Below, one piece after another: positions 23,824-54,658 of a stretch of 64,000 bases of DNA. This stretch comes from a virus. Taxonomy: Duplodnaviria > Heunggongvirae > Uroviricota > Caudoviricetes. Under the pieces are notes generated by a model. It was not told where the DNA came from, did no database searches, and saw only the letters and a list, made by a program, of their open reading frames with translations. The stretch is from IMG/VR virus record IMGVR_UViG_3300042896_000947, positions 46,159-110,158 of that record; one strand, given 5' to 3'. The position numbers and the translations under genes were made by a program. The first letter of the stretch is position 1, and each line of letters starts with the position of its first letter.

Positions 23824-24057
23824 TCAGCGAATGCGGTAGATGCCCCGGGTTTGGCCCGTCGACCAGCTCTTCGGCTTGCTCAGCTGGTGGTAGATCAGGC
23901 TCAGAAGCGAGAGCGTCACCAGCAGGCCCAGCGCAAGCAGGCAGTTGTTGCGCTCGCCGAGTGCAGCGAAGACCAGCGAGGTGGCGCCCGCAGCGATGGC
24001 GCACAAGCCCGCAATGAGGGTCATGGCGGTGTAGTAAAAGGCGTGCGGTGATTTCAT
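23824..24057 (-). CDS. Cassette gene, small membrane protein (77 aa)
   Basis: MKSPHAFYYTAMTLIAGL.., two predicted TM helices. Conserved leader GACAATTGAGACTCAACAACACAGGGTCTCAC-ATG. Confidence 0.5.
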   Translation of the reverse strand: MKSPHAFYYTAMTLIAGLCAIAAGATSLVFAALGERNNCLLALGLLVTLSLLSLIYHQLSKPKSWSTGQTRGIYRIR

Positions 24058-24160
24058 GTGAGACCCTGTGTTGTTGAGTCTCAATTGTCTCGACCTAGCA
24101 TAGGCTATGCTGCCCTACCCCAGGCTGCGATTGACCGCGTCCTGAGCCTAATTTAAGGGC

Positions 24161-24182
24161 AGAAAAGCGGGGCCGAAGCCCC
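24161..24182 (-). terminator. Cassette terminator GGGGCUUCGGCCCC + UUUU
   Basis: Hairpin with UUCG loop followed by a T-run on the minus strand, directly after the stop at 24188. Near-identical copies at 25763-25784, 26207-26226, 26718-26746 and 51441-51458, and degenerate copies elsewhere. Confidence 0.6.
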
Positions 24183-24187
24183 TGTGC

Positions 24188-24502
24188 TTACCAGTTCATC
24201 TCTTCCTTCATTTGCGCTGCGACCGCATCAATCGCCTGGTGGTGGGTCAGCCCCTGCCGATGATCGACGCACAGTGCGCCGTTCTCGTCGATTTCGGTGA
24301 AAACCATCACCTCGTAAATGGAGTATTCCTGAAACCTGGTCACCGGGATCATCAGGATCGAGCAGCGGTCTTTCGTGTTTGCATCCCGGGGGTCGGACAC
24401 CACCCAAGCTGCGCTATCTTCGAGCGCGTTGAATTCCGCTTTGGTGTAGTTGGGCAGCATGGTGTCGCGGTCAGAGGCAATGCGGGGGCGAATCGTGTTC
24501 AT
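24188..24502 (-). CDS. Cassette gene, hypothetical protein (104 aa)
   Basis: Start MNTIRPRIASD. Leader TTGATACTTGAATCTTCAACAACACAACAAGGTCTCACCC-ATG. Confidence 0.5.
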   Translation of the reverse strand: MNTIRPRIASDRDTMLPNYTKAEFNALEDSAAWVVSDPRDANTKDRCSILMIPVTRFQEYSIYEVMVFTEIDENGALCVDHRQGLTHHQAIDAVAAQMKEEMNW

Positions 24503-24582
24503 GGGTGAGACCTTGTTGTGTTGTTGAAGATTCAAGTATCAAGCAGGGGTGCAGGCTGCTGAGCCCACACCCAGGCTGCGTG

Positions 24583-24810
24583 TCAGTCGAACAGGTCTTC
24601 ACCCAGGACGTAGCGGTTGACGAACTCCTCGTCGTCGATGATCTCCAGCCCCTCAAGCTCATCGGCTTCGCTGTCGAACCAGTCATCCTCGTCGTTCAGG
24701 TTCACGTTGAACTGCTGCTGAAACCCGGCGATCTCTTCAGGCGTCATGTGCTTGCGCGGGTTGGTCAGCGCATCAAAGCAGTCAGGCTGGTGGTAGTTGC
24801 TACGGGACAT
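24583..24810 (-). CDS. Cassette gene, small highly acidic protein (75 aa)
   Basis: MSRSNYHQPDCFDAL.., D/E-rich C-terminal half. Conserved leader. Confidence 0.5.
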   Translation of the reverse strand: MSRSNYHQPDCFDALTNPRKHMTPEEIAGFQQQFNVNLNDEDDWFDSEADELEGLEIIDDEEFVNRYVLGEDLFD

Positions 24811-25089
24811 GGTGAGAACCTTTCGTTGTTGTGAGTCTTTAGTGTCAGACCCACCCCCAGGCTTGCGCCCAGCCCCACCAGGCTGCGAATCACCGCGTCC
24901 TACCCTAGCCTACCGTGTCCTACCCTGTCCTAGTCTGCTCTGCCACAGTCCTGTGCATGAGCCGAGCGCGGCTGGCGTGGGCCTATGTGTATCAGGCCCC
25001 GCAGCCGAATACAGATTCGGAGGGGCCTATCGTGCTGGGCAGCCGAATACGCTGCCTACTCCCGGGAGCAAGGGCCGAAGCCCCGGTGC

Positions 25090-25347
25090 TTACTCTGACC
25101 TGAAGGTCTCGCCCACGGTCAGGCTCTCGATGCCCATGCTGCCCAACTTGAAGACCATCTGCCCGTAGGCGCTGGTTTTGTCGAGCTTGGTGTGCTCGAC
25201 CAGGAAGCACGCATGCGCTTCGTTCATCTTGTCCATGAACGAGATCGTCATTTCAGTGTCACCGTCGAAGCAGGAAAATTCGATGAATTCGTTTTCGTAG
25301 CTGGAGCTGTCGCTGAGAGAGATGGCGGTGATTTCGGTGGTGAGCAT
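25090..25347 (-). CDS. Cassette gene, small acidic protein (85 aa)
   Basis: Start MLTTEITAISL. Leader GACAATTGAATTTCATCTACATAAAGGTTCCCACC-ATG. Confidence 0.45.
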   Translation of the reverse strand: MLTTEITAISLSDSSSYENEFIEFSCFDGDTEMTISFMDKMNEAHACFLVEHTKLDKTSAYGQMVFKLGSMGIESLTVGETFRSE

Positions 25348-25422
25348 GGTGGGAACCTTTATGTAGATGAAATTCAATTGTCAGGGCAGGGTGCAGGCAC
25401 GGGCGCTGCACCCCGGCTGCGT

Positions 25423-25623
25423 TCAGGTCGCCCAGGTGCCGATCTGCTGCCCGTCGAGCGTGATGACGGCAGAGTTGAAGACATACTGGCGCAGGTAACC
25501 CTTGAGGTCGGACAGCTCGGTGTCGTGACCCTCGGCAAGCGTCTTGTGGGCGAGCAGTCTGTCGGTGACGCTCGACCTGATCTGGAGCGCGCCCTTGGTG
25601 AGCTTGGCGGTGAGTGTGAGCAT
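25423..25623 (-). CDS. Cassette gene, hypothetical protein (66 aa)
   Basis: Conserved leader GACAATCAAAGCTCACAACAACGAAAGGTTCCC-ATG. Confidence 0.45.
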   Translation of the reverse strand: MLTLTAKLTKGALQIRSSVTDRLLAHKTLAEGHDTELSDLKGYLRQYVFNSAVITLDGQQIGTWAT

Positions 25624-25786
25624 GGGAACCTTTCGTTGTTGTGAGCTTTGATTGTCACGCCCTACCCTAGGCTAGTGAGCCCCATGCTCGGCCCCCACCC
25701 CCATCAGCCTAGTTCTGGGCCTAAGCCTGACCCTCCCCCTCCTAAGCCTAAGTTCGCGACCCAAAAATGGGGCCGAAGCCCCATGC

Positions 25787-26101
25787 TCACCCGTGACTGA
25801 TCACGATGCTGTGGTTCTTGGAAAGCTCACGCTCATGCTCTGCGACAGCTTGAGCGATCTCGCTCATGTGCATCATCAAGATACCGGGCCGAACGCTCTT
25901 GTCGGTGCTAAATTCGATCTCGACTTCCCACTCCGAAATCGTGCCCTTTTCGTGGTCGAGGTAACCCTGATCAAAGGGGTAGGTCTTGGTGTAAGTGATT
26001 CGCACATTGGAACCGTAGTCGCCCACTTGGTAATGAAAGCAAACAACCTTGCTGTCTGAAGAGTTGGAAGTGACTTCGATACCGTCGAGTAATTCATTCA
26101 T
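25787..26101 (-). CDS. Cassette gene, small acidic protein (104 aa)
   Basis: Leader GATAATTGATACTTCAACAACAAAGGGCTCTCAA-ATG. Terminator at 25763-25784. Confidence 0.5.
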   Translation of the reverse strand: MNELLDGIEVTSNSSDSKVVCFHYQVGDYGSNVRITYTKTYPFDQGYLDHEKGTISEWEVEIEFSTDKSVRPGILMMHMSEIAQAVAEHERELSKNHSIVISHG

Positions 26102-26231
26102 TTGAGAGCCCTTTGTTGTTGAAGTATCAATTATCTGACCCTACCCTAGGCTACGGTAGGGCAGTGCAGGCTGCGTAATCCCGTCCTAGTCCTAATTTGC
26201 GGGCAGCAAAAAGGGGCCGAAGCCCCGGTGC

Positions 26232-26498
26232 TTACGTTTCAAATGTTCGCCCGACCAGCTCGGACGGGTCGCCCTTGTATTGCACATCCCAGTATTCATC
26301 GGACTCTGTGAAGCAATGCACCGCGAACTCAAACAAAGGCAGACTGCCCTCGGTCTCCCAGATCGCTTGAATCTCGGACCCGGTGAGCGTCTTGGTCTCT
26401 GTGAACTTGTCGTATTCAGCACCGACCCCAAACGTGTAGGTGTCGGACTCTGCGTCGTATGCTTTCAAAATGATAGCGATTGATTCGGTGATAGTCAT
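26232..26498 (-). CDS. Cassette gene, small acidic protein (88 aa)
   Basis: Leader GATAATTGAATCTCAACAACACAAGGTTCTT-ATG. Terminator at 26207-26226. Confidence 0.5.
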   Translation of the reverse strand: MTITESIAIILKAYDAESDTYTFGVGAEYDKFTETKTLTGSEIQAIWETEGSLPLFEFAVHCFTESDEYWDVQYKGDPSELVGRTFET

Positions 26499-26748
26499 AA
26501 GAACCTTGTGTTGTTGAGATTCAATTATCTGACCCTACCCTAGGCTGCACCACCCTATGCTAGGCTGCCCGCATGCAGCCGATAGCGCAGCCGAGCCCCG
26601 CCTAAGCCTGGTCTGGGTCTGCCTGCTCCCGGGAGCACCAGCGCCCCGCTCGGCGCCCCGTCCTATGCCTATCGTGCTGCCCAGCCGAATACCGAAGCCT
26701 GGGCCTAAATCGAGGTCAAAAAAAAGGGAAGGGCCGAAGCCCTCCCGA

Positions 26749-27069
26749 TCACTCCTCGAACAAGTCCTGCACAATGAGCACCAGCGCGTCCTTCATGGGG
26801 GTGAGCGTGTCCTGCTCGCAGTCTGCCCAGGTCCGCATCTCGTAGCCGACGATGGTGACGGTGCGGGCCAAGCCCGATGCTTCATGCACGGGGCCGATGT
26901 ATGCGAAGCTGTCGTGGGTCTCCTGGGTGCATTCCTGGGGGCTCACGTCGGTCTCCTCGTCGTAGGTGACCGCGATTTGCCCTTGGTAGAACCCTGCGCT
27001 GTCCGAGACCTCATAGACCTTCAAGGACAGGGCGTTGTTGATGTAGACGGGGTTGACGGAGATTGTCAT
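26749..27069 (-). CDS. Cassette gene, small acidic protein (106 aa)
   Basis: Leader GACACTAAAGACCTCAACAACAAAAGGTCTCACC-ATG. Terminator GGGAGGGCUUCGGCCCUUCCC + U8 at 26718-26746. Confidence 0.5.
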   Translation of the reverse strand: MTISVNPVYINNALSLKVYEVSDSAGFYQGQIAVTYDEETDVSPQECTQETHDSFAYIGPVHEASGLARTVTIVGYEMRTWADCEQDTLTPMKDALVLIVQDLFEE

Positions 27070-27247
27070 GGTGAGACCTTTTGTTGTTGAGGTCTTTAGT
27101 GTCGAGCAGGGGTCTAGGCTACCCTGCCCTATGCTAGGCCCCGTGCGGGTGTCCTAACTCACAGCCGACCCCCCCCACCCCCGCCAGCCTAAGTTTGGGC
27201 CTAGTTTTAAGCCTAAGCCTGGTCAAAAGCAGGCTCTTTGCTCGGCT

Positions 27248-27523
27248 GTGAGGTTGGCCCCCCTGTAAAAGCTACCCCTCCGAGTGGGGTGAATTAAAAT
27301 AAAACCCCCGTACAGCCCCTCTACAGGGGTTTTGGCACTGGAGCCTACTTTTACAGGGGGTCCAACCTCGGGCCTAAGCCTGAGCCTGTCGTGCCGAGCA
27401 GCCGAACACAAAATGGGCCGAAATGGTCAAGGATTCGAGCCGAATATCAGGAAAACGGGCCGAATTCATCAAGGACCAGAGCCGAATGCGGAATTTGGCT
27501 AGGGGTAGCTTTTACAGGGGGTC
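27248..27523. mobile_element. MITE-like element: 121-bp unit (27248-27368) with ~27-bp terminal inverted repeats GGTTGGCCCCCCTGTAAAAGCTACCCC / GGAGCCTACTTTTACAGGGGGTCCAACC, and a third TIR copy at 27494-27523
   Basis: Inverted and direct copies of CTTTTACAGGGGGTCCAACC seen directly. An internal hairpin CCCC-tctaca-GGGG + TTTT. Five ~21-bp GCCGAAT-containing tandem repeats between the TIR copies. Confidence 0.35.
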
Positions 27524-27556
27524 CAACCTTCAGGGGCGGTCTTTCAGCGCATGCTT

Positions 27557-28274
27557 TTAGCCGTACCAGTTGTGCCGGCATAGGGCGAGTACGAATGCCT
27601 GCTGGCCGAGCTCGGCCAGCAGGCACATCAGCCCGATCAGGCACAGCGCAATCAGGCCATTTCTGTTCACGACCAGGCGCAGTGCCGAGCGCTGGGGGTG
27701 GTCGTGATCCTGGGCGAGCTGGTGCGCCGTTTCGTAGCGGGCCTGCACGCTCAAAATCTCGCATCCCATGTCGGCGTAGTGACGCTCCAGAGAGGCGCGC
27801 ATCGCCACGGCACGGGAGCGAATCACCTCGGCCGCAACGGTGGTTCTGAGAATGGTGAACTGCTCGGCGCCCTGGTCGTCCAAAAATGCGATGGTCACGG
27901 TGACTTCGCCGATCCCTTGGTTGGTGCTCACGCTTGGCCCCGGGAATCAGGCGCAGTCTGGGGGCGGGGTGCTCAGGCGGGCCAGGCTGGGAGGGTGCAG
28001 GCGGGGGCTCTGTCGCCATTTCCAGGGTTTGTGAGCCGATCAGGTCGAGCTGCTGGAGTGTGCAGTCGCACGACAGGCACAGCGCGACCAGGCCCTGTGT
28101 GAGCCGAAGTCGGTTGGTCTGAGCCTGGGCGTCTGAGCCTGAAAAGCGGGCGGCGACAACGCCTGGGGAGCTGCTGGTGATGGTGGCCTGGTGGGTCAGC
28201 CCCTCGGCGTCAAGGTAGGTAAAGCGCACGGCTGGGCGTTCGTAAACGCTTGGCTGAAAGTAAGGATGCTTCAT
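27557..28274 (-). pseudogene. Hypothetical gene apparently split by a frameshift near 27930-27960 (N-part from ATG 28274, C-part ORF 27557..27931 with C-terminal TM helix)
   Basis: The two plausible halves are in different frames. The second half has only a GTG start and no RBS. The long single-frame ORF 27447..28274 decays into Pro/Arg-rich junk after about 110 aa. Confidence 0.3.
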
Positions 28275-41041: not shown

Positions 41042-41383
41042 TCAGGCGGGTTGCGAGAATTCTTCGATCAGCGAATTGAGCCAGGCCAGGCGCGTGGCTT
41101 GCATCTTTTGGCCTTCGGACGTGCTGAAGTCCGTCATCATTTCGGTGAGCAGCGCAGGGTGGCGGAACTTGATCCAGTCTGACAGCGTAGCGTGGCCGCA
41201 AAGACGCTCGCTGATCACCGCGCGCGCGGCAGATGCGGTGGTGAAGCTGATCTTGTCGTCCTCATTCGCATTGCCCAGCGCCCAGCAGATGAATTCGGAC
41301 CGCGTGGTCGTCTCATGACGGGTCTCGGACAGGTAGTCCCTGGCGGCACGAAACGCCGCGGCGATTTCCTTGCGCCTGGTCAT
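41042..41383 (-). CDS. Hypothetical protein (113 aa)
   Basis: ORF. Palindrome AGTCA-gcgg-TGACT at 41010-41023 downstream. Confidence 0.4.
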   Translation of the reverse strand: MTRRKEIAAAFRAARDYLSETRHETTTRSEFICWALGNANEDDKISFTTASAARAVISERLCGHATLSDWIKFRHPALLTEMMTDFSTSEGQKMQATRLAWLNSLIEEFSQPA

Positions 41384-41904
41384 GCCGCCACCGATGCGTT
41401 TGCGCTCTTGGGCCAGCCCATCTTGGCCAGCTCGGAGGCCAGGTTGGCGATCGCCGGAAGCATCGTGCCCTTGACGGCTTCCTCGGGCAGGTACTTGGCA
41501 AACTCGGGCAGACGATCATGGGCTGCCTTGAGCGTGGTGCAGCTCTGGATCACGGCGGCGATCTGCGCTTCGATGGCTTCGCGGGATGCCATCTGCGCCT
41601 TGGCCAGCTTTTGCAGCGCGGTGGCACCAGTGACTGCGCCGGCGCTTGGCTCATAGTGCTTGAAAACAGTGACGGTGCCGACCATGGAGCTGTAGCGGTG
41701 GCCGGGCGGGCCGTAGGAGGACTCGCCAGTGAGCAGGTAGCAGCGCAGCGCCTTGTCCTTGAGCAGCGCGGCGATCTTGGGCGGCGCAACGACCAGCATG
41801 TCATCCTCGATCAGCTTTTTGAACTGCTCGGCATAGTCGATCGACGGCAGGTCAAGCATGACGGCAGAAACGAACGCCTGGCGGTGGTAATTGGTGAGCT
41901 TCAT
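41380..41904 (-). CDS. Hypothetical protein (174 aa)
   Basis: ATGA overlap with the next gene. Confidence 0.45.
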   Translation of the reverse strand: MKLTNYHRQAFVSAVMLDLPSIDYAEQFKKLIEDDMLVVAPPKIAALLKDKALRCYLLTGESSYGPPGHRYSSMVGTVTVFKHYEPSAGAVTGATALQKLAKAQMASREAIEAQIAAVIQSCTTLKAAHDRLPEFAKYLPEEAVKGTMLPAIANLASELAKMGWPKSANASVAA

Positions 41905-44656: not shown

Positions 44657-45301
44657 TCAGTGCAGTCGGATGCCCGCTTGTTTGCTCTGGCTGTGAAGTT
44701 TTTCAGTCACGGTCACGGCATGCGCAACGGCGTTGCGAACGCACGCCACGCGCTGCTCCAGCTTGATGAAGCGGCGTGGAATCAGGTAGTGCCGGGTGTG
44801 CAGCCGCTCGTCCACCAGCAGCCCGCCCAGCGTGAGGTTCAGATGCTCGATGTAGGCGGGGCATGCCAGGGCTTTCCCGCTTGCCTCGACCAGCGCAATG
44901 CCCGGTTGCACCAGCAGCACCGTGGCGAACCAGCGATTTGTCGATTCGATGCAGCGCCGCACATAGTCGTTGACCATCGCTGCCAGCGCCGGTTCGCCCG
45001 CCAGGGTGTTGCGCTGCACATCGGCCACCATGTAGGCGGCCAGGTCCAGCGGGCAGCGGTCGGCGATGAACACCGGCGTGGCCGCGCTGGCATGCGCATA
45101 CTGCTGCTCCAGCGCCAGCAAGATGGCCTCCTGGATCGCCAGGCGCTCCTCGACCGGGTAGACGGCGCTCGGGTCTTTGCCCAGCAGCGCGAAGACCTCG
45201 GAGACGCCGGTCTGCAGGAAGGCGATGTTCGCGGCCTCGGCGAACGCCCTGGCCAGCGTCGTCTTGCCAACCCGGTGTGAGCCTGTCAGGGCGATGTTCA
45301 T
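44657..45301 (-). CDS. P-loop NTPase/kinase (AAA_28, NadR-like ribosylnicotinamide kinase-like)
   Basis: Walker A GSHRVGKTT at the N-terminus. 214 aa. Adjacent to nucleotide-metabolism genes. Confidence 0.5.
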   Translation of the reverse strand: MNIALTGSHRVGKTTLARAFAEAANIAFLQTGVSEVFALLGKDPSAVYPVEERLAIQEAILLALEQQYAHASAATPVFIADRCPLDLAAYMVADVQRNTLAGEPALAAMVNDYVRRCIESTNRWFATVLLVQPGIALVEASGKALACPAYIEHLNLTLGGLLVDERLHTRHYLIPRRFIKLEQRVACVRNAVAHAVTVTEKLHSQSKQAGIRLH

Positions 45302-45306
45302 GGCGT

Positions 45307-45789
45307 TCAGCCCGTCACGCCGATGGCGGTGCTGCAGCCGCCGGTCGAACCAAACCCGCCCGTGCCGCGCACCGTTTCGTGACTGAACTCCTCGACTTCG
45401 ACAAAGCTCGCCTGTTCGACGGGCGTGAAGCAGCCCTGCGCGATGCGGTCGCCGTTGTTGACCTTGAACGGCGACTTCGAGCGGTTGTAGAGCATGATGC
45501 CGATCTCGCCCTGAAAGTCCGAGTCTATTAGCCCGACGCTGTTGGCCAGAATGATGCCCTTGCTGCCGAGGCCGGAGCGCGGCATCAGGGTCAAGGCCCA
45601 GGCGGGCGAGCCGATGAACATGGCGATGCCAGTGCCGATGCGAAGGGTCTCGCCGGGCATCACGACCAGCGGGCCGTCGGGGCAGCAGGCGTGAAAGTCA
45701 GCGCCAGCCGCGCCAGCGGTCTGGTATTTGGGGGCAACGGCCAGGGGGTGAATCTTTTTGAGCTGAACGGGAAGGCGGGGCATGGTCAT
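45307..45789 (-). CDS. dut: dUTP diphosphatase (dUTPase)
   Basis: dUTPase motifs ..RSGLGSKGIILANSVGLIDSDFQGEI.. and ..GTGGFGSTG... Confidence 0.85.
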   Translation of the reverse strand: MTMPRLPVQLKKIHPLAVAPKYQTAGAAGADFHACCPDGPLVVMPGETLRIGTGIAMFIGSPAWALTLMPRSGLGSKGIILANSVGLIDSDFQGEIGIMLYNRSKSPFKVNNGDRIAQGCFTPVEQASFVEVEEFSHETVRGTGGFGSTGGCSTAIGVTG

Positions 45790-45865
45790 GGGAAGGTTCC
45801 TAAAAGTGCTTATAGGGAGGTCGGCGCACGACTTTTTCTTCGGCGCCGATCCAGGGATGGGCGAA

Positions 45866-46096
45866 TCAGCCAGCGATCAGGCTGCGCAGCTTCAAGGCCA
45901 CGACATCGGCGCGGCCCGCTTCGGCACGCGCTTCGTTGGCGCGGGTGGTCATCGAGAACGCCTCGGTCTGCAAGTCCTCGGCCTTGGCAATCTCACGCTC
46001 ACGCACGATTTCCAGGTCGGTGATGTTTTGGCTGAACGCCGTCAGAATGTCGTTGACCGACTTCTTGGCGGGGGCGGGGTTGAAAAACTTGAACAT
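45866..46096 (-). CDS. Hypothetical small protein (76 aa)
   Basis: Preceded by a promoter-like unit: TTGACA, TATAAT and palindrome AGTCA-gttg-TGACT (46121-46134). Confidence 0.4.
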   Translation of the reverse strand: MFKFFNPAPAKKSVNDILTAFSQNITDLEIVREREIAKAEDLQTEAFSMTTRANEARAEAGRADVVALKLRSLIAG

Positions 46097-46158
46097 GATT
46101 CTCCAGGAAGAGTTTTAAATAGTCAGTTGTGACTGATTTTATTATAGTCAGACAAGTG

Positions 46159-47076
46159 TCAAGGCTGCGCGAATTCAAGCTCCAGCAGCTTGCGGTTTTG
46201 CACCCAGCCCTTGAAGTTGCCGTGTGCGGACGACTGCTCATAGCCGGTAAAGCCGTCGGTGTCTTCATGCCACTCGTCGGGCGTAGCCTGGTGCTCGACA
46301 GGCGAGGCATGTAGCGGCACCGAGCCGACCAGCCGCTCGTACAGCGCCAGGTCCTTGGCCACGTCAGGCTGCTCGTTGTCGTGGGTGAGGTAGGACACCC
46401 GGGCGCAGCGCGCCGCCGACAGCTTGCGGCACAGCGCGTCGATCATTGCGTCGGTCCAGACCTGCATGCCGTCCGGCCCGCCGCGCAGGTAGGTTTGCAC
46501 CGGCCCGAACGCCGATGTGTCTGCCGCCGTGACGTAGGGTAGGTGCCACTGGCAGGGTAGAAGCGCCTCGGGCGTTGACCCGTTCATGGCCGCCAGCATA
46601 ACGCGGGCCAGCGCACGAATCTCGGGCTGCGCGTCCGGGTGGTTGCGCAATTCGAAGAAGTTGGCGAACTCGGTGGCCGTGACGACAACATGAATGTGCT
46701 GAAACGGCTCCAGGATGCGGTTGGCCACCTGCTTGTGCGCGCCGTGCCGGTTCATTTCTTCTGCAATGTCAGCCGCCGCGCGTGCGGCCTGCAGCCAGTT
46801 GGTCTTGGTCAGCGACAGCTGCGGCTCATCCAGTTGCTGATGCGCCTGCATGCCCGGCTGGTTGGCACCCCAATGCAGCGGCGCGGCAGGGTTGGTTCGC
46901 ACCTGCTCGATCATCTTGGCCACAGGGATGGCTCGCGAGCTGCTGGCGTTGCGGCTGAAGACGCGGTGCGTCATGAACTCGGCGTGGATGAAGCGCGGGT
47001 ACACCAGTTGCAGCGTCGTGAGGCGCACTCCGCGCGGACTGACGGAGTCGGCGATGATTTTGGCACTGATGGTCAT
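46159..47076 (-). CDS. thyX: Flavin-dependent thymidylate synthase ThyX
   Basis: ThyX signature RHRxxxxxxxS within ..EFMTHRVFSRNASSSRAIP... 305 aa. Confidence 0.8.
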   Translation of the reverse strand: MTISAKIIADSVSPRGVRLTTLQLVYPRFIHAEFMTHRVFSRNASSSRAIPVAKMIEQVRTNPAAPLHWGANQPGMQAHQQLDEPQLSLTKTNWLQAARAAADIAEEMNRHGAHKQVANRILEPFQHIHVVVTATEFANFFELRNHPDAQPEIRALARVMLAAMNGSTPEALLPCQWHLPYVTAADTSAFGPVQTYLRGGPDGMQVWTDAMIDALCRKLSAARCARVSYLTHDNEQPDVAKDLALYERLVGSVPLHASPVEHQATPDEWHEDTDGFTGYEQSSAHGNFKGWVQNRKLLELEFAQP

Positions 47077-47079
47077 GGC

Positions 47080-47583
47080 TTAGCCTCGCTGCATGGTGCG
47101 GGTCGATGGGCCGCCGACAGGCTTGACGCTGACGGGGTTGGCTTTTGCGGCAATGGCGGCGGTCACGCCGGCGCCGACCACTTCAAGGCGCTTGAACTCC
47201 AGAAACTGCTCGGTGGACTTGCCCTCCTTGTCCATCTCGGCCTGCACGAAGTAGTAGACGCAGCCGTTCATGAAGATCACCCGGCGCGTGGCGATGCCGA
47301 CGAACTTGGTGATGATGTCGCGGACCTTTTCGCCCAGCGTGATGCTGTCGCCGCTTGATGCCGGGGTGACGCGCGCCGCAATGCCTTCGTCGATGTAGTC
47401 CAGCTGCTGCAGATCGTGGCTGACCGGCTCGTAGACGCCGCCACCGTCGCCCTCTTTGGCCATGATCTGAATGCCGAACTGCACGTTGCCCGTGAGGAAC
47501 TCGGTGCGGGTGACGGTCAGGCCCTCGATGCCGGTGGTGATTTCGCGGACCTTGTGGCCCAGCTTGATTGCTTTGGTGGTCAT
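47080..47583 (-). CDS. Hypothetical protein (167 aa)
   Basis: Start MTTKAIKLGHKV. Coupled to thyX. Confidence 0.45.
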   Translation of the reverse strand: MTTKAIKLGHKVREITTGIEGLTVTRTEFLTGNVQFGIQIMAKEGDGGGVYEPVSHDLQQLDYIDEGIAARVTPASSGDSITLGEKVRDIITKFVGIATRRVIFMNGCVYYFVQAEMDKEGKSTEQFLEFKRLEVVGAGVTAAIAAKANPVSVKPVGGPSTRTMQRG

Positions 47584-47677
47584 GACTTCCTGATGTAAGG
47601 GCGGGCACATTGCCCGCCCGATGGTTAAATTGTAGGGGAGCGGTTCAGGATTGAACCATTCACCCGTGACTTACTTG

Positions 47678-49228
47678 TCAGCTGGCAGCCAGGTTGGCGC
47701 GCACCTGGGCCAGCGTCATGTCGCGCATCAGCCGGCCGTTGTAGAACACATCCTCCAGCGCCCCGCCCGCCTCTTGCGCGAAGTCCTGCTGGTCGTACAG
47801 GACGAAGTCGCTGCCCTCTTTCTCCACCCGCAGCAGGCCCTTGGCCGACTTCTTCACGCCGCCCGTGTCGGTCGCCGGGTCTTTGAAGAGTTCGCGCCCG
47901 ACGCCGTCCACCACCGCGTAGGTCGCCTTCATCGCCATGCCCAGTGTGTCCCGGGTGATCAACTGGTAGGTGTAGCTGCCGATGCCGAAGACCACGTTGC
48001 CGGCGCTGAATCCCTTGGTCATCAGGCGCTGCAGGATCTCGCACTGACGCTCCAGGGTGATCGAGTCGCCGTAGATCAGGCCGACGCGCTCGTTCAGCGT
48101 CTTGTAGCCTTTGTCGGTGACGGTGCCGCCGAAGATGTCGTACAGGCACTGCACGGCGCCCTTGCGCTCGCTGGCGCTGATGGTCTCGCCCGTGGCGATC
48201 ACCGTGAACTGGCCGCTCCAGGAGACCTGCAGTTCGTCTTCGGCGTAGCCGCACAGAATGCGCACCGGGTCGCCGCTGTCGGGCCGGAACACCACCTTGG
48301 CCTGACCCAGCGCGTTTGGCGTGCGGTTGAGAATTTCCCTCATCAGGCTGCGGGCCGTCTCGGTGATCACGTTCCAGAAGTCCCAGGTGTCCGAGACCAC
48401 GCTGACGATGCCGCCCGGGTACACGTCCTGAATGATGCGCCGGATCGTCTCGCGCTCGTCGTCCGCGCCGCCCGCGCACATCACGGCATGCTCGGTCGCA
48501 GGCACGCTGCCGCCGATCAGTTCAAGGTTCGCATCGGCGCCGTAGTAGTTCTCCAGGAAGTCGATGGCCGAGACGGTGTCGGTGCCAAAGTTGCTCAGCA
48601 GGTGGCCGGCCGAGGCGCTGGAGGCATCATGCACGCCGGACATGCCGCGCATCGAGAAATCATGGCACTGCCAGGCGGCCAGCTCGGGCGACGAGCCGGT
48701 GAGCGCGACGTAGTGGTCGAGCTGGCGGCGGTACTCGTAGGCGATGGTCGCCACCGTGGTGGGCTTCCAGACCTCGTTGGACAGCACGGTCTCGATGTAG
48801 TTGACGAGCCAGAAGAAATCGGGGTGGGTGTTTTGCACCGTGAGAAACGGCACCTTCATGTTCACCCGGCTGCCCTCGGGCAGCGCCTTGATCAGCAGGG
48901 GCAGGTAGCCCAAGTCGTGCAGCGCCTCGATGCGGTGCACCGGCACGCTGCCCTCGCCCAGGCTGGTGTCCATGCGGCGCTTGTACGCGGCGACCACCCG
49001 GGCCTTGGGCTGCTCGAAGAACTCGCGGTTCCAGGTGTCGATCAGGAACCACTTGACGAAGCCCTGCAGGCCGAACCAGACCGCCTTGTTGTCAAACAGC
49101 GCTGACACCTTGGCGTGCGCGGCGCTGCGCGGGGTGAAGTTGGAGCAAACGAAGCGGGTGCCGGGCGGGTACTGCTCGGGGTGGCCGGACTTGTAAAAGT
49201 CGATGGCCGTGAGGGGGTTGATTTTCAT
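47678..49228 (-). CDS. nadV: Nicotinamide phosphoribosyltransferase (NAMPT/NadV family)
   Basis: 516 aa with ..GSVPATEHAVM.. and ..SDTWDFW.. regions characteristic of the NAMPT/PncB-like family. Length typical of NadV. Confidence 0.75.
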   Translation of the reverse strand: MKINPLTAIDFYKSGHPEQYPPGTRFVCSNFTPRSAAHAKVSALFDNKAVWFGLQGFVKWFLIDTWNREFFEQPKARVVAAYKRRMDTSLGEGSVPVHRIEALHDLGYLPLLIKALPEGSRVNMKVPFLTVQNTHPDFFWLVNYIETVLSNEVWKPTTVATIAYEYRRQLDHYVALTGSSPELAAWQCHDFSMRGMSGVHDASSASAGHLLSNFGTDTVSAIDFLENYYGADANLELIGGSVPATEHAVMCAGGADDERETIRRIIQDVYPGGIVSVVSDTWDFWNVITETARSLMREILNRTPNALGQAKVVFRPDSGDPVRILCGYAEDELQVSWSGQFTVIATGETISASERKGAVQCLYDIFGGTVTDKGYKTLNERVGLIYGDSITLERQCEILQRLMTKGFSAGNVVFGIGSYTYQLITRDTLGMAMKATYAVVDGVGRELFKDPATDTGGVKKSAKGLLRVEKEGSDFVLYDQQDFAQEAGGALEDVFYNGRLMRDMTLAQVRANLAAS

Positions 49229-49243
49229 GAGTGCTCCAGGTGG

Positions 49244-50080
49244 TTAAAGGACAATCAACAGCGGGTCTTTGCGCTGATGCAGGCCGACCCCGACGAGGTT
49301 GGCCACATAAATGGCGTCGAAGTGAAGGTCCAGCGCCATGCAGCCGGCCGAGAAGATGCCGTGCGAGACGTACAGGAAAATCTTGCCCGTAGTGAGCTTG
49401 CGCAGCTCCTTGGCCAGCTCGATGAAGGTGCGGCCGCCATCGCAAATGTCGTCCAGGATCAAGAAGTCGCGGTCGCCGACCGGCTCCGAATACACCACGG
49501 TGCCGGTGATCTTGCCGGTCAGCGGGTCGCGCGTCTTGTCCGCGCGCACCACGTCGGCAAAGCCGTACTCTTTGGCAAAGGCCAGCACCTTCTTGTTCGC
49601 CCCAGCGTCGGGCGACACCAGAATGGCGCCGCGCTGGGCCTCGGCGACCGTTCGGGCGGCCGTGAGCAGGCTGATGTGCGTCAGGTTGTCGATCAAGGCC
49701 GCGCCCACGTCGGAGTGAATGTCAGTGCAGGTCACGCGGCTGTAGCCCTGGCTGTTGATCAGGTCGGCCACCACCTTGACGGAGAGCGACTCGCCCGGGT
49801 TGCACACGCGATCTTGGCGCGCATACGGCAGGTAGTGCATGGTGAGCGACAACTCGACCGGCTCACTGGTGCGCCCGCCGTAGTGCCGGCGCACGGCATC
49901 GGTGAGCAGCAGCAGGTCGATCAGGTCGCCGTTGTCCTTGAAGTCCATGGTGATGTTAGCCACGATGGCCTTGCCGCCCGGGAAGATTTCAGGCGGGTTG
50001 ACCAGCCGCACCAGCGACTCGCCGCCGGGGAAGCCGGTGATGGCGACTTTGACTTCGCCGTTGTGAACGAACAGTTTCAT
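49244..50080 (-). CDS. prs: Ribose-phosphate pyrophosphokinase (PRPP synthetase)
   Basis: Start MKLFVHNGEV (RBS AAGGAG). PRPP-binding loop ..ILDDICDGGRT... Confidence 0.75.
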   Translation of the reverse strand: MKLFVHNGEVKVAITGFPGGESLVRLVNPPEIFPGGKAIVANITMDFKDNGDLIDLLLLTDAVRRHYGGRTSEPVELSLTMHYLPYARQDRVCNPGESLSVKVVADLINSQGYSRVTCTDIHSDVGAALIDNLTHISLLTAARTVAEAQRGAILVSPDAGANKKVLAFAKEYGFADVVRADKTRDPLTGKITGTVVYSEPVGDRDFLILDDICDGGRTFIELAKELRKLTTGKIFLYVSHGIFSAGCMALDLHFDAIYVANLVGVGLHQRKDPLLIVL

Positions 50081-52324: not shown

Positions 52325-54658
52325 TTATGCTGCTTTTTCTTCTTCCTGGAAGTCGATTGGGCACCCACCTGCCCCGCAATCCACATGCTCAAAGCCGATC
52401 TCTTCCTTCATCGAGTCGTCGGTGATGGCTGCCACGATGGCACGGAACTCGTCGGGCGTGACTGGCGTCTCGGGCAGGTACTCGTAGGCCGAGGTGTCAC
52501 CCGCCGGCATCACCGAGCAGCACTTCACCGTGGACTGGCCGTCGAGCAGCGTGCGGCGGAACTCTTCAAAGGAGACCACCTTCATGTCCAGCTTGAGCGT
52601 GTAGCTGACCTGATTGCCGTAGCTGTGGCGGCCGACGCCTTCCTGGTAGCCGTCGATCCAGTATTTCTCCAGCAGCTGCAGAAAGCGGTACTGCTCCTGG
52701 GGCGTAGCCTCGGGCGCCGTCACCAGGCGCTCGCCCATGCCGAGCTTGCAGATTTCCGGGATGGTCGGGAAGCCGACGATGGTCGTGCCGCTGTAGGTCT
52801 TGAGTTCCTTGACCGGGTAGCCGTTGGCGCGGTACTGCTCGATCAGCGGATCGTCGCTGCGGAACTGGACCCAGCGCAGGTACTCGCCCATCGCCGGCAG
52901 GTGAACGCCTTCGCTGAGTGAATACAGTTTGCTGATCGTGCCGCTGGGCTTGACCGTGGTGACTGTGTGTGGAATGGCCACGCCGAGTTTGGTCGCGTAA
53001 GCAATCGCCTCGGCCACACAGGCGTTAGAGAACCGGCTCATGGTCTGCCAGAAGTCGAGGGACTTTTCCTCGTTCACGATGTCCTTCCAGCAGTAGCCAA
53101 AGCGCGCCCAGGCATACTCATGCAGCCCGGTCGGCCCCACGCCGATGCGGTTGGTGCGATCCACTTCCTTCTGGTACAGCGCGTTCATGGTGTTGGTGCG
53201 AATCAGGGCGCGCACGGCGGTTCGGAAGGCATCCTCGGCGCTGTCATCCCAGGCGCGGGCGGTGCGCTCCAGCTCTTCAAAGGAGCGGTGGGTCGAGCCC
53301 ATCCAGGTGCCGTTGCGAACGCTCGGGTCAAAGCGACCCGCATGGTACGGGGCCACGTCGGCGATCAGGCAGTACGCCCCCACCAGCGCCAGCGAAATCT
53401 CGCCGCACGGGTTGGTGATCTGCTGAAAGCGCTTGGTGGCGAACACCTTGGCCAGCGCGGCGGTCATGCGCTTGGTGCCTTCGTCGAGCTGGAAGCGGTC
53501 AGAGGCGGCGTAGTCGCCGTCGAACAGGACTTCGACGCCCTCGTTCTTTTGCGTCAGGCGCTCGACGTTGATCAGGCCGGGCTCGCCTGTGCCGTCGTGG
53601 TAGCTCGATGCGCAGATGGCCTCGAAGACTTCCTTGGCATGCTCAGCCAGCGCCACGGTTGCGCCGCTTTCGGTCGCCTGGATGTCCTTGATGTCGGCCT
53701 TGACCAGCTTCCAGAACTCTTCATCGACGGTCACGGAGTTGTTGGAACTCCAGAGCACGCCGCCCTTCTTGACGGAGATGAACTCAAAGACCGTGCTATC
53801 GCGCCAGCTCTTTGTCGCCATGCGGGCCGCACGCCGCGCACCGCCCACCAGCACGCACTCGGCGGCGTAGTGGTCGGCGTGCATGGCGGCCTTCCAGGGC
53901 GCCAGGCCGCTGCCCTTGATGGTCGCGATGGACTTGATCGCCGTCATGATCGGGCCGGGGCCGGATGCGGGGCGGTTTTGCATGCCGCCGATGGGCTGAC
54001 CCCGGGCGCGCACCTTGCTGAAGTCCAGCAGCAGCACCTTGTCGGCGTGGCGGCCTTCCCAGGCCATGAACTCGATCTGCTCGACCGCCTTGGCCCAGCC
54101 TTCGCGGGAGTCGGGCACTTCAAAGACGACGGTGTTCATGGCGCTTTGCGGCAGCACCACGTCCACGAACTCGGCGCCGATCTCGCCCGACAGCACGTCC
54201 GGGTGGTCAGCGCGAACGACCGGCACGACATGGGGCATGTGCGCGCTCCAGTCCACCAGCATCATGTCGTCGTCGTAGCTGCGGCCCACGCCCGAGCCGT
54301 TAAGCAGCAGGTAAAACAAGATGAAGGTGCTGGCCGAGGTCGAGCAGTTGGAGTACACCTCGATGTTGCGGCCCGGCTGGGTCTCGTCGCCGTGCTGCAG
54401 GTGGCGGCCGGACATCAGCACCGAGGCTTGGCGCAGGTGCTTGTGCAGGATTTCAAACTCATGGCCCGAGTCTTCGGGGCGCAGCATGGAGTTGCCGAGG
54501 GCGACGCGGTAGGCCACGTCACCCCAGGATTCAAGGCTGCCGTCGGGCTTTTTCCTCAGAATCGTTCGAGCCGCCACCGCCTCGCCAATACCTTTGGCGA
54601 GGGGGCGAGCTGGTGTTTCCCAGCTTGTTTTTGGCATGATTGCAGATACGGAGTTCAT
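52325..54658 (-). CDS. nrdJ: Class II (adenosylcobalamin-dependent) ribonucleotide reductase NrdJ
   Basis: 777 aa monomeric RNR. Active-site motif ..ITNPCGEISL... Confidence 0.8.
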   Translation of the reverse strand: MNSVSAIMPKTSWETPARPLAKGIGEAVAARTILRKKPDGSLESWGDVAYRVALGNSMLRPEDSGHEFEILHKHLRQASVLMSGRHLQHGDETQPGRNIEVYSNCSTSASTFILFYLLLNGSGVGRSYDDDMMLVDWSAHMPHVVPVVRADHPDVLSGEIGAEFVDVVLPQSAMNTVVFEVPDSREGWAKAVEQIEFMAWEGRHADKVLLLDFSKVRARGQPIGGMQNRPASGPGPIMTAIKSIATIKGSGLAPWKAAMHADHYAAECVLVGGARRAARMATKSWRDSTVFEFISVKKGGVLWSSNNSVTVDEEFWKLVKADIKDIQATESGATVALAEHAKEVFEAICASSYHDGTGEPGLINVERLTQKNEGVEVLFDGDYAASDRFQLDEGTKRMTAALAKVFATKRFQQITNPCGEISLALVGAYCLIADVAPYHAGRFDPSVRNGTWMGSTHRSFEELERTARAWDDSAEDAFRTAVRALIRTNTMNALYQKEVDRTNRIGVGPTGLHEYAWARFGYCWKDIVNEEKSLDFWQTMSRFSNACVAEAIAYATKLGVAIPHTVTTVKPSGTISKLYSLSEGVHLPAMGEYLRWVQFRSDDPLIEQYRANGYPVKELKTYSGTTIVGFPTIPEICKLGMGERLVTAPEATPQEQYRFLQLLEKYWIDGYQEGVGRHSYGNQVSYTLKLDMKVVSFEEFRRTLLDGQSTVKCCSVMPAGDTSAYEYLPETPVTPDEFRAIVAAITDDSMKEEIGFEHVDCGAGGCPIDFQEEEKAA

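What the first reader, a model, noticed from the sequence alone, without database searches (positions are those of the whole stretch)
44657..50080. Phage-encoded NAD+ salvage module (NAMPT + PRPP synthetase, with a NadR-like kinase and ThyX/dUTPase nearby)
**What is present.** Adjacent genes for NAMPT/NadV (47678-49228) and ribose-phosphate pyrophosphokinase (49244-50080) give a phage the PRPP donor and the phosphoribosyltransferase needed to rebuild NMN/NAD+ from nicotinamide. A P-loop NTPase resembling the ribosylnicotinamide-kinase domain of NadR (44657-45301) lies in the same block.

**Why it matters.** NAD+-depleting defences (Thoeris, DSR, SIR2-type, SEFIR) abort infection. Phage NAD reconstitution pathways are a recently recognised counter-defence.

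**What is unusual here.** I see no NMNAT in the window, so the pathway may rely on the host enzyme or on the unannotated 47080-47583 protein.
Basis: partly seen in the sequence, partly recalled or inferred. Interest (0 to 1): 0.55.

Follow-up and report, generated by a model that had tools for sequence, protein, structure and literature searches.

The report
Phage NARP1 operon (Adps + Namat)
Two adjacent genes in this roughly 110 kb phage look like PRPP synthetase and NAMPT, but they are a new example of the known NARP1 pathway, which rebuilds NAD+ directly from ADP-ribose and nicotinamide after a bacterial defence has destroyed it and so needs no NMNAT.

Summary
The biochemical reading is the naive one that experiments overturned in 2024.

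**The 516-aa "NAMPT" is Namat-type.**
- It scores 507 bits against the crystallised SpβL1 Namat and about 210-215 bits against human or Xanthomonas Nampt.
- It carries the Namat motif as GSYTYQLITRD.

**The 278-aa "Prs" is Adps-type.**
- Its donor loop, DDICDGGRTF, is identical to that of a Felixounavirus homologue.
- It keeps the catalytic lysine and lacks the PRPS C-terminal helices.
- It scores like verified Adps, not like E. coli Prs, on profile models.

**Operon and family context.** The two genes lie 15 nt apart. In 78 of 80 related viral loci the same two gene types occur together.

**Conclusion.** This is NARP1: ADPR + ATP gives ADPR-PP, and ADPR-PP + nicotinamide gives NAD+. The absence of an NMNAT is expected, not unusual.

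**Neighbouring genes.**
- The "NadR-like" kinase belongs to the ThyX/dUTPase/RNR block, including in relatives that lack NARP1.
- The unannotated protein is an all-β tandem barrel, not a nucleotidyltransferase.

**Verdict.** A new member of a known kind, of modest interest. Enzyme activity is inferred, not measured.

The parts
49244..50080 (-). adps: ADP-ribose pyrophosphate synthetase, a PRPS-like protein of 278 aa and the first gene of the NARP1 operon
   Evidence: - Start: ATG with AAGGAG 6 nt upstream.
- Identity: 38% to the biochemically verified ICP1 Adps at 132 bits, against 77 bits to E. coli Prs.
- Donor (PP) loop: DDICDGGRTF, identical to the Felixounavirus Adps; E. coli Prs has DDMIDTGGTL.
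- Conserved residues in ICP1 numbering: R87, H121, D161, K185, D212, D213, D216.
- Length: 278 aa against 315, so the PRPS C-terminal helices are missing.
- NCBIfam TIGR01251: 118 bits, like ICP1 Adps (98) and Felixounavirus Adps (118); E. coli Prs scores 423.
- HMM built from 71 Namat-linked viral Prs-like proteins: 268 bits, against 144 for E. coli Prs.
49229..49243 (-). 15-nt junction between adps and namat, containing a GGAG ribosome-binding site
   Evidence: The sequence 'taaccacctggagcactcATG' shows the two genes tightly coupled in one orientation. No terminator-like site lies between the two genes; one weak consensus match (49276-49259) lies inside the 3' end of adps.
47678..49228 (-). 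namat: nicotinamide ADP-ribose transferase, a Nampt-like protein of 516 aa and the second gene of the NARP1 operon
   Evidence: - PDB sequence search: 507 bits (5e-151) to SpβL1 Namat 9W5X/9W5W, against 215 bits to mammalian NAMPT and 210 bits to Xanthomonas Nampt.
- Reciprocal control: a NadV from a KVP40-sized Vibrio phage that carries the GGGLLQ Nampt motif scores 398 bits to Xanthomonas Nampt, 342 to human NAMPT and 235 to Namat.
- Selectivity-clamp helix: GSYTYQLITRD fits the Namat consensus GSXΦXΦXΦTRD. Nampt-type proteins have GGGLLQ..(T/D)RD.
- Conserved core residues: D10, Y12, F191, R194, D217, A244, H247, R315, D317, R426.
- All 120 closest database homologues carry the GS[YF]... 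motif.
47080..47583 (-). Neighbour, not shown to be part of the pathway: 167-aa tandem β-barrel protein of unknown function
   Evidence: - AF2 model: pLDDT 92, all β, two five-stranded barrels.
- No PDB fold match with E below 0.01, and no nucleotidyltransferase fold.
- A homologue lies directly upstream of ThyX in a relative that lacks NARP1.
- It lies next to NARP1 in the close relatives L012 and L095, but in 0 of 80 more distant NARP1 loci.
46159..47076 (-). Context: ThyX (flavin-dependent thymidylate synthase), part of the deoxynucleotide block
   Evidence: Pfam Thy1 4e-14; PHROG 85 4e-93.
45307..45789 (-). Context: dUTPase, part of the deoxynucleotide block
   Evidence: Pfam dUTPase 1.5e-26; PHROG 135 1e-54.
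44657..45301 (-). Context: AAA_28 P-loop nucleoside/nucleotide kinase; best guess is a dNMP (thymidylate-type) kinase, not part of NARP1
   Evidence: - Pfam AAA_28 3e-13; PHROG 2107 'thymidylate kinase' 5e-9.
- AF2 model pLDDT 95.
- Foldseek top hits are thymidylate kinases, deoxyadenosine kinase and NadR, all at TM 0.55-0.63.
- Syntenic with ThyX and RNR in L009 and L010, which lack NARP1. About 6 kb from NARP1 in L012.

Best explanation
Genes 49244-50080 and 47678-49228 form a two-gene NARP1 operon (NAD+ reconstitution pathway 1).

**Proposed mechanism.** A host defence NADase (TIR, SIR2 or SEFIR type, as in Thoeris, DSR1/2, SIR2-HerA) cleaves NAD+ into ADP-ribose and nicotinamide.
1. [quoted passage not shown]
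2. The Nampt-like enzyme Namat displaces the pyrophosphate with nicotinamide, giving NAD+ directly.

No PRPP, NMN or NMNAT is needed, and the pathway runs only when ADPR accumulates.

**Shown here:** gene presence, operon structure, clade membership, and conservation of the catalytic and specificity residues.

**Inferred from homology to SpβL1, Bas63 and ICP1 proteins:** the two enzyme activities and the anti-defence role.

**Neighbours.** The ThyX, dUTPase, AAA_28 kinase and class II RNR genes form a separate deoxynucleotide-supply block. The cassette sits inside that block.
For: **Namat**
- 507 bits to the crystallised SpβL1 Namat against 210-215 bits to true Nampts. A phage NadV carrying the Nampt-type motif shows the opposite ranking.
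- The clamp motif GSYTYQLITRD matches the published Namat signature.
- The catalytic and nicotinamide-binding residues are all conserved.

**Adps**
- Donor loop DDICDGGRTF, catalytic Lys182, acceptor residues R88, H122, D158, D210 and D211, and the C-terminal truncation all match verified Adps.
- Reciprocal profile scores place it with Adps: 268 against 144 bits on the Adps profile, and 118 against 423 bits on the PRPS model.

**Operon and family context**
- The gap between the genes is 15 nt, with its own ribosome-binding site.
- 78 of 80 IMG/VR loci with relatives of this Namat carry a Prs-like gene within 6 kb on the same strand. This matches the 97% linkage reported by Osterman et al..
- No NMNAT, Nudix or Macro domain was found in the window. 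This is consistent with the report that no phage carries both NARP1 and NARP2.

**Published biochemistry of the family:** (Osterman et al.; Namat structures; Adps structures).
Against: - No activity was measured for these proteins.
- Two of the three published adenine-stacking positions of the Namat clamp differ. Clamp-helix position 7 is Leu423, where 63 of 74 related viral proteins have Tyr. The third residue of the clamp loop aligns to Ala37 rather than Arg, Lys or Tyr, in a loop 5 residues longer.
- In SpβL1, double clamp mutants lose 2.4- to 16.6-fold activity, so preference for ADPR-PP could be weaker here.
- Namat enzymes also make NMN from PRPP in vitro.
- The closest relatives include bacterial chromosomal prs-nadV operons long read as classical salvage.
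- Only 64 kb of a 110 kb genome was inspected for an NMNAT.
Confidence: 0.85

Rival explanations
1. The 278-aa protein is a true PRPP synthetase and the 516-aa protein a true NAMPT/NadV. Together they make NMN from ribose-5-phosphate, ATP and nicotinamide, and a host enzyme (NadR, or NadD after PncC) finishes NAD+.
For: - Pfam, PHROG and NCBIfam names say Prs and NAMPT/NAPRTase.
- The Prs-like protein just passes the broad TIGR01251 subfamily cut-off, 118 against 113 bits.
- Namat enzymes retain NMN synthesis from PRPP in vitro.
- Two clamp positions deviate from the consensus.
Against: - The same annotations were shown to be wrong for this gene-pair family. Purified SpβL1 Adps gave no product in the control reaction, and Bas63 still overcame defence in a ΔpncC ΔnadR host.
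- The window proteins group with Adps and Namat, not with Prs and Nampt, on every reciprocal test.
- All PRPS equivalog models are missed by 200-480 bits.
- The donor loop is the rewired Adps type.
Confidence: 0.07
2. The pair works as NARP1 chemically, but its role is general NAD+ housekeeping or recycling during infection, or in a lysogen, rather than counter-defence. This would parallel the NrtR-regulated chromosomal prs-nadV operons of bacteria.
For: - Close homologues sit in bacterial chromosomes, next to the ADPR-sensing repressor NrtR (L011) or next to NadM-Nudix (L002).
- Rodionov et al. 2008 described such operons.
- Osterman et al. allow a housekeeping role in some bacteria.
- Here the cassette lies in a nucleotide-metabolism block, not among recognisable anti-defence genes.
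Against: - In phages the pathway has been shown to act against Thoeris, DSR1/2, SIR2-HerA and SEFIR, and to be idle without a defence system because ADPR is scarce.
- The cassette is present in some close relatives and absent in others, and occupies different positions. That pattern is typical of accessory counter-defence genes.
Confidence: 0.06
3. The AAA_28 kinase is a nicotinamide-riboside kinase that adds a third entry route into NAD+ (NARP3-like), cooperating with Namat and Adps.
For: - The Pfam family AAA_28 includes the NadR kinase domain.
- A NadR cryo-EM structure is the third-ranked Foldseek hit, TM 0.63.
- A distant homologue of the kinase lies directly upstream of Adps in L077 and L085.
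Against: - No sequence similarity to NadR: no PDB sequence hit at E <= 1 other than a spurious antibody chain; hhalign probability 9.9% over the P-loop only; phmmer gives nothing.
- Thymidylate and deoxynucleoside kinases match the fold equally well.
- The gene is conserved next to ThyX/dUTPase/RNR in relatives without NARP1.
- There is no PnuC transporter and no NMNAT domain, both of which define NARP3.
- Only 2 of 80 NARP1 loci have such a kinase nearby.
Confidence: 0.04

Closest known systems
NARP1 (Adps + Namat) of Bacillus phage SpβL1, Escherichia phage Bas63 and Vibrio phage ICP1 (Osterman et al. 2024; Namat structures 9W5X/9W5W; ICP1 Adps structures)
   Same: - Gene order adps then namat, in a tight operon.
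- Namat 52% identical to SpβL1 Namat and 47% to the ICP1 homologue.
- Adps 38% identical to ICP1 Adps, with an identical donor loop to the Felixounavirus homologue.
- Conserved catalytic residues, the clamp-helix motif, no NMNAT, and a phage genome.
   Different: - A new phage lineage of about 110 kb and 62-64% GC. The nearest relatives are prophage-like regions of Polaromonas and Variovorax.
- Leu instead of Tyr at clamp-helix position 7.
- A clamp loop 5 residues longer, with Ala-His where SpβL1 has Arg40.
- An insertion in Namat (residues 337-355 have no counterpart in SpβL1 Namat), at the site where Felixounavirus Namat has about 90 extra residues.
- The cassette is embedded in an RNR-ThyX-dUTPase block.
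NARP2 (NadV/Nampt + bifunctional NMNAT-Nudix NatV) of Vibrio phage KVP40
   Same: Both are phage NAD+ rebuilding pathways that use a Nampt-fold enzyme and nicotinamide.
   Different: - NARP2 uses PRPP and needs a phage NMNAT.
- Its NadV has the GGGLLQ..DRD motif and groups with cellular Nampts.
- The window protein is only 32% identical to such a NadV.
- No NMNAT is present in the window.
Bacterial NrtR-regulated prs-nadV operons (Shewanella, Acinetobacter ADP1, Chromobacterium; Rodionov et al. 2008) and bacterial NARP1 (Paenibacillus foliorum)
   Same: - The same two gene families.
- The Acinetobacter homologue is 63% identical to the window Namat and has the GSFTYNYLTRD motif and a DDICDGG Prs paralogue.
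- The P. foliorum pair was shown to make NAD+ from ADPR and nicotinamide.
   Different: - They are chromosomal.
- They are under an ADPR-sensing repressor or next to NadM-Nudix.
- Their physiological role is not established.
NARP3 (PnuC-like transporter + bifunctional NadR-like enzyme) of BASEL phage Bas30
   Same: A phage NAD+ restoration route. Its NadR-like enzyme contains a kinase domain of the wider P-loop kinase group to which the window's AAA_28 protein also belongs.
   Different: The window has no PnuC and no NMNAT domain, and its AAA_28 protein shows no detectable sequence similarity to NadR.

Membership tests
NARP1: Adps | PRPS-fold protein in the phage Adps clade, separate from canonical PRPS | tested here: met
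   - Adps profile from 71 Namat-linked viral proteins: window 268 bits, E. coli Prs 144 bits.
- TIGR01251: window 118 bits, ICP1 Adps 98, Felixounavirus Adps 118, E. coli Prs 423. All PRPS equivalog cut-offs are missed.
- Best PDB PRPS hit is only 71 bits, against 132 bits to ICP1 Adps.
- No full tree with many canonical PRPS sequences was built.
NARP1: Adps | Remodelled PP (donor) loop conserved among Adps (ICP1 C215-S220) | tested here: met
   Window DDICDGGRTF; ICP1 DDICDGAASF; Felixounavirus DDICDGGRTF; Acinetobacter DDICDGGATF; E. coli Prs DDMIDTGGTL. 53 of 78 viral neighbours have DD[IL]CDG.
NARP1: Adps | Catalytic lysine (ICP1 K185) and acceptor residues R87, H121, D161, D212, D213 | tested here: met
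   Window K182, R88, H122, D158, D210, D211. F92 of ICP1 is Cys93 here, and Met in the Felixounavirus protein.
NARP1: Adps | Loss of the PRPS C-terminal α11-α12 filament and regulatory module | tested here: met
   278 aa against 315 aa. The alignment ends about 35 residues before the E. coli Prs C-terminus.
NARP1: Adps | Pyrophosphorylates ADPR and does not make PRPP | not testable with these tools
   Needs the purified enzyme and LC-MS.
NARP1: Namat | Groups with Namat rather than Nampt/NadV | tested here: met
   507 bits to 9W5X against 210-215 bits to Nampts. The ranking is reversed for a NadV carrying the Nampt-type motif. Identity is 52% to SpβL1 Namat and 32% to that NadV.
NARP1: Namat | Clamp-helix consensus GSXΦ1XΦ2XΦ3TRD with an aromatic residue at position 3 | tested here: met
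   GSYTYQLITRD: Y419 at position 3, T, Y, Q, then I at Φ3.
NARP1: Namat | Aromatic residue at clamp-helix position 7 (SpβL1 Y396) | tested here: not met
   Leu423. This is natural variation within the family: Y 63, F 5, H 4, M 1, L 1 among 74 viral relatives. L, M, H and G also occur among the 120 closest homologues. The paper says these positions are 'most often aromatic', so this is a typical feature, not a strict one.
NARP1: Namat | Clamp loop supplies a stacking residue (third residue typically R, K or Y, or else the fourth residue) | tested here: inconclusive
   The window has S-A-A-H-A-K in a loop 5 residues longer. Ala aligns to R40, and the following His recurs in most of the closest homologues (Tyr in one). 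The loop alignment is uncertain. A dimer model with NAD+ is needed.
NARP1: Namat | Nampt-like catalytic core (nicotinamide-stacking Phe and Tyr, Asp for nicotinamide, catalytic His, Arg306) | tested here: met
   D10, Y12, F191, R194, D217, A244, H247, R315, D317, R426.
NARP1: Namat | Prefers ADPR-PP over PRPP and makes NAD+ directly | not testable with these tools
   Needs an enzyme competition assay.
NARP1: operon | adps and namat adjacent on the same strand | tested here: met
   15-nt gap. 78 of 80 related viral loci show the linkage.
NARP2 | Nampt-clade NadV plus a phage NMNAT | tested here: not met
   The protein is Namat-clade. No NMNAT was found in the 64 kb window. The remaining roughly 46 kb of the genome was not inspected.
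NARP1-AP | Macro-domain ADPR-1''-phosphate phosphatase (Adpp) in or next to the operon | tested here: not met
   No Macro domain within two genes on either side, or anywhere scanned. A relative, L096, does have one.
NARP3 | PnuC-like transporter plus a bifunctional NadR-like NMNAT/kinase | tested here: not met
   No PnuC and no NMNAT domain. The AAA_28 protein has no sequence hit to NadR.
Canonical PRPP synthetase (Prs) | Passes a curated PRPS equivalog model and has the DD(M/V)IDTGGT PP loop | tested here: not met
   The best equivalog-type model reaches 88 bits against a cut-off of 296. Only the broad TIGR01251 subfamily model is passed, 118 against 113 bits. The loop is DDICDGGRT.
NadR ribosylnicotinamide kinase (for 44657-45301) | Detectable homology to the NadR kinase domain beyond the P-loop | tested here: not met
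   hhalign probability 9.9% over 39 P-loop columns. No PDB sequence hit. The fold is equally close to thymidylate and deoxynucleoside kinases.

The most novel reading that the evidence does not exclude
This phage lineage may run a modified NARP1. One possibility is that the variant adenine clamp (Ala-His loop, Leu at clamp-helix position 7) changes donor preference, for example towards dual use of ADPR-PP and PRPP or use of another ADPR derivative. Another is that the conserved tandem β-barrel protein, which lies next to the cassette in the window, L012 and L095, is a lineage-specific accessory factor, for example a binder of ADPR-derived molecules.
Probability: 0.1. Interest if true: 0.45.

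Novelty: new member of a known kind. Interest (0 to 1): 0.2.

Why it matters
The pathway itself was described in 2024 and occurs in about 4% of sequenced phages. The value here is mainly corrective. A Prs + NAMPT pair without an NMNAT in a phage should be annotated as Adps + Namat (NARP1), not as PRPP/NMN salvage.

This instance extends NARP1 to an uncultured phage lineage of about 110 kb whose nearest relatives are prophage-like regions of Polaromonas and Variovorax. It also offers a natural clamp variant that could test the published selectivity-clamp rules.

Comparison with relatives shows the cassette being gained, lost or moved within one phage group, as expected for accessory counter-defence genes.

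Tried and rejected
- **Megablast of 44-52 kb against phage records.** Only short ThyX matches; no close sequenced relative.
- **Nicotinate PRTase.** NCBIfam names the model 'nicotinate phosphoribosyltransferase', but it is the NadV/Nampt-type model. PncB-type models do not match the window protein, and the nicotinamide-binding Asp217 is conserved. Rejected.
- **PDB sequence searches** with the kinase and the 176-aa protein gave nothing meaningful.
- **hhalign** of the kinase family against E. coli NadR and Tmk was non-significant for both, so the substrate stays unresolved.
- **Foldseek** of the β-barrel model against the PDB gave no hit with E below 0.01, only weak resemblances to KOW, Tudor and Agenet barrels.
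- **The search for related loci** with the β-barrel alignment failed because no stretch was conserved enough.
- **β-barrel protein as a general NARP1 partner.** It is present in 0 of 80 more distant loci, so this is rejected as a general rule and left open for this lineage.
- **PDB entry 9KE8/9KEO.** It scores 398 bits and is Namat-like, but I could not trace its source.
- **The PDB copy did not return the ICP1 Adps structures,** so Adps residues were mapped by alignment to the ICP1 gene instead.

Full report
**What is there**

In order of transcription the block reads:

| Coordinates | Product |
|---|---|
| 52325-54658 | class II ribonucleotide reductase |
| (between) | three unknown ORFs |
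| 49244-50080 | Prs-like protein, 278 aa |
| 47678-49228 | NAMPT-like protein, 516 aa |
| 47080-47583 | unknown protein, 167 aa |
| 46159-47076 | ThyX |
| (between) | a 76-aa ORF |
| 45307-45789 | dUTPase |
| 44657-45301 | AAA_28 P-loop protein, 214 aa |

The Prs-like gene starts at an ATG preceded by AAGGAG. It ends 15 nt before the NAMPT-like gene, which has its own GGAG.

The window is phage DNA: it has portal, large terminase, major head and scaffold proteins. The exact 516-aa protein is on record on a 110,158-bp contig. An independent gene call on a second contig gives the same gene boundaries. No sequenced phage is close at the DNA level.

**Why the pair is NARP1 and not Prs + NAMPT**

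Osterman et al. started from exactly this annotation (Prs plus Nampt) in phage Bas63. They found that the phage still overcame SIR2-HerA in a host lacking pncC and nadR. They found that the purified Prs-like enzyme of SpβL1 gave no product in the control reaction but pyrophosphorylated ADP-ribose to ADPR-PP. They also found that the Nampt-like enzyme joined ADPR-PP to nicotinamide to give NAD+ directly, and preferred ADPR-PP over PRPP (bioRxiv 10.1101/2024.02.11.579819). They named the enzymes Adps and Namat, and the pathway NARP1. In their data 97% of Adps-clade genes have a Namat next to them. The separate NadV clade (NARP2, KVP40) goes with a phage NMNAT instead.

*The 516-aa protein is Namat-type.*
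- Against all PDB sequences it scores 507 bits (5e-151) to the SpβL1 Namat crystal structures 9W5X and 9W5W. The paper's data statement confirms their identity. It scores only 215 bits to mammalian NAMPT and 210 bits to Xanthomonas Nampt.
- The control behaves the other way round. A NadV from a KVP40-sized Vibrio phage that carries the Nampt-type motif scores 398 bits to Xanthomonas Nampt, 342 to human NAMPT and 235 to Namat.
- The structure paper defines a Namat-specific selectivity-clamp helix motif, GSXΦXΦXΦTRD, whose aromatic residues stack on the adenine of NAD+ (PMC12774641). The sequences at this motif are:

| Protein | Clamp-helix motif |
|---|---|
| window | GSYTYQLITRD |
| SpβL1 Namat | GSFTYQYNTRD |
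| ICP1 | GSYTYQYVTRD |
| Felixounavirus relative of Bas63 | GSYTYQYMTRD |
| Vibrio phage K566 NadV (Nampt type) | GGGLLQQSDRD |

- All nicotinamide-binding and catalytic positions are conserved: D10, Y12, F191, R194, D217, A244, H247, R315, D317, R426. This also rules out a nicotinate enzyme.
- All 120 closest database homologues carry the GS[YF] form of the motif.

*The 278-aa protein is Adps-type.*
- The ICP1 Adps structures (PMC13586617) define four things: an acceptor groove inherited from PRPS, a rewired donor (PP) loop (C215-S220), a catalytic Lys185, and loss of the C-terminal helices used by PRPS for filaments and regulation.
- In alignment the window protein has K182, R88, H122, D158, D210, D211 and D214.
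- Its donor loop is DDICDGGRTF, identical to the Felixounavirus protein. ICP1 has DDICDGAASF and E. coli Prs has DDMIDTGGTL.
- It ends about 35 residues short of E. coli Prs.
- Profile scores are reciprocal. On the curated PRPS model TIGR01251 it scores 118 bits. The comparison scores are 98 for ICP1 Adps, 118 for the Felixounavirus Adps, 100 for the Acinetobacter paralogue and 423 for E. coli Prs. It misses every PRPS equivalog cut-off by hundreds of bits.
- On a profile I built from 71 Prs-like proteins that sit beside Namat genes in viral contigs, it scores 268 bits and E. coli Prs scores 144.
- Pairwise, it scores 132 bits to ICP1 Adps and 77 bits to E. coli Prs.

*Linkage.* I fetched the 80 best IMG/VR loci encoding relatives of the window Namat (43-60% identity). 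Of these, 78 carry a Prs-like gene within 6 kb on the same strand: 57 upstream and 21 downstream. None has a NadM-type NMNAT.

**The missing NMNAT**

Pfam scans covered every selected ORF from 31 to 64 kb. In the first half of the window, each larger ORF got either a Pfam scan or a PHROG assignment. No nucleotidyltransferase, Nudix or Macro domain appeared. phmmer with NadM-Nudix, NadR and NrtR found nothing at E <= 10 among 693 ORFs.

For NARP1 this is the expected state, not an oddity. It folds with high confidence (pLDDT 92) into two tandem five-stranded β-barrels with no α/β nucleotide-binding fold, and has no significant PDB match.

**The 'NadR-like' kinase**

The AAA_28 hit covers only the N-terminal half. 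There is no sequence-level similarity to NadR. The high-confidence model (pLDDT 95) matches thymidylate kinases, a deoxyadenosine kinase and NadR about equally, at TM 0.55-0.63 and 12-19% identity.

Gene context is more informative:
- In a related 104-kb phage contig (L009) and a Variovorax prophage-like region (L010), the gene sits in the same RNR-ThyX-x-kinase arrangement with no Adps or Namat present.
- In L012 it stays beside dUTPase while Adps-Namat lie about 6 kb away.
- In L095 the order is again Namat-ThyX-x-kinase.

The kinase therefore belongs to the deoxynucleotide block. A dNMP, thymidylate-type activity is the best guess, but the substrate is unresolved.

**Caveats**

- No enzyme activity was measured.
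- Two of the three published adenine-stacking positions differ in this protein. Clamp-helix position 7 is Leu423, where most relatives have Tyr, although H, M, F, G and L all occur naturally.
- The clamp loop is five residues longer, with Ala aligned to SpβL1 Arg40. It is followed by a His that recurs in most of the closest homologues.
- In SpβL1, single clamp mutants lose 1.3- to 1.7-fold activity, and double mutants lose 2.4- to 16.6-fold. Some shift in donor preference therefore cannot be excluded.
- Namat also makes NMN from PRPP in vitro.
- The nearest relatives include bacterial chromosomal operons. One is Acinetobacter prsA_2-nadV-nadM/Nudix; that record is filed as a phage but looks chromosomal. 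Another is Nitrogeniibacter nrtR-prs-nadV.
- Rodionov et al. 2008 described such ADPR-derepressed prs-nadV operons and remarked on the unexplained second prs paralogue (PMC2330246). The Namat paper showed that a bacterial pair has NARP1 activity.
- These bacterial operons fit NARP1 chemistry but leave room for a housekeeping role.

**Verdict**

- This is a plain two-gene NARP1 cassette without the Macro-domain extension. It is a new member of a known kind in a new phage lineage, whose nearest relatives are prophage-like regions of Polaromonas and Variovorax.
- Confidence that it works as NARP1 is about 0.85. Interest is low to modest.

Noticed in passing
L006:1995-3458 (Vibrio phage ICP1 isolate 2018_Mat_170); the same in L001: The ICP1 Namat homologue has an in-frame TAG at codon 28 (...EVTHV*SNFT...), where other Namats have Tyr or Cys. 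The deposited CDS starts downstream at a GTG (439 aa) and would lack the residues equivalent to D13 and Y15 that bind nicotinamide. It could be a pseudogene, a case of suppression, or a strain feature.
   Followed up: partly
L011:4348-7620 (Nitrogeniibacter aestuarii chromosome) and L002:8099-11316 (contig filed as 'Acinetobacter phage MD-2021a' that looks chromosomal): Bacterial chromosomes carry Adps-like and Namat-like pairs with the Namat motif and the DDICDGG loop. One lies next to the ADPR-sensing repressor NrtR and the other next to NadM-Nudix. The classical 'prs-nadV' salvage operons of Rodionov et al. 2008 may really be bacterial NARP1.
   Followed up: partly
window 47080-47583; L012:9804-10307; L095:8259-8738; L009:5828-6313: A tandem β-barrel protein family with more than 1,250 clusters, a confident AF2 model and no PDB fold match. 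It sits immediately beside the NARP1 cassette in three related phages, on either side of it. In a relative without NARP1 it sits beside ThyX. It is absent from 80 more distant NARP1 loci.
   Followed up: partly
L077:3879-4637 and L085:3865-4623 (IMG/VR contigs): A distant homologue of the window's AAA_28 kinase, with the same DRCPLD.LAY motif, lies directly upstream of Adps in a large AT-rich phage. This is the only other case among 80 loci.
   Followed up: no
L096:13611-14066 and L097:6032-6496: Other phages with close Namat homologues carry a Macro-domain gene (as in the NARP1-AP extension) or a NADAR-domain gene within a few kb of the cassette. The window has neither.
   Followed up: no
L008:9192-9961 (Polaromonas sp. 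P1(28)-13 chromosome CP087963): The closest Namat relative (77% identity) lies in a prophage-like region. There the Prs-like gene is called as two pieces of 121 and 134 aa, which suggests a frameshifted adps.
   Followed up: no
window 20000-28000: A stretch of lower G+C (0.53-0.58, against 0.62-0.65 elsewhere) packed with small ORFs that have no family matches.
   Followed up: no
window 11809-16754 and 41380-41904: Two ParB-like nuclease-domain proteins lie beside two proteins that PHROGs label as ABC ATPases. A Nmad5 (nucleotide modification associated) domain protein lies further on. Together they may indicate a DNA-modification or partition-like module.
   Followed up: no
window 47678-49228, residues about 337-360 of the protein: The window Namat has an insertion (...YAEDELQVSWSGQFTVIATGETISA...; residues 337-355 have no counterpart in SpβL1 Namat) at the site where Felixounavirus Namat has about 90 extra residues. 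This looks like a variable surface loop of the family.
   Followed up: no
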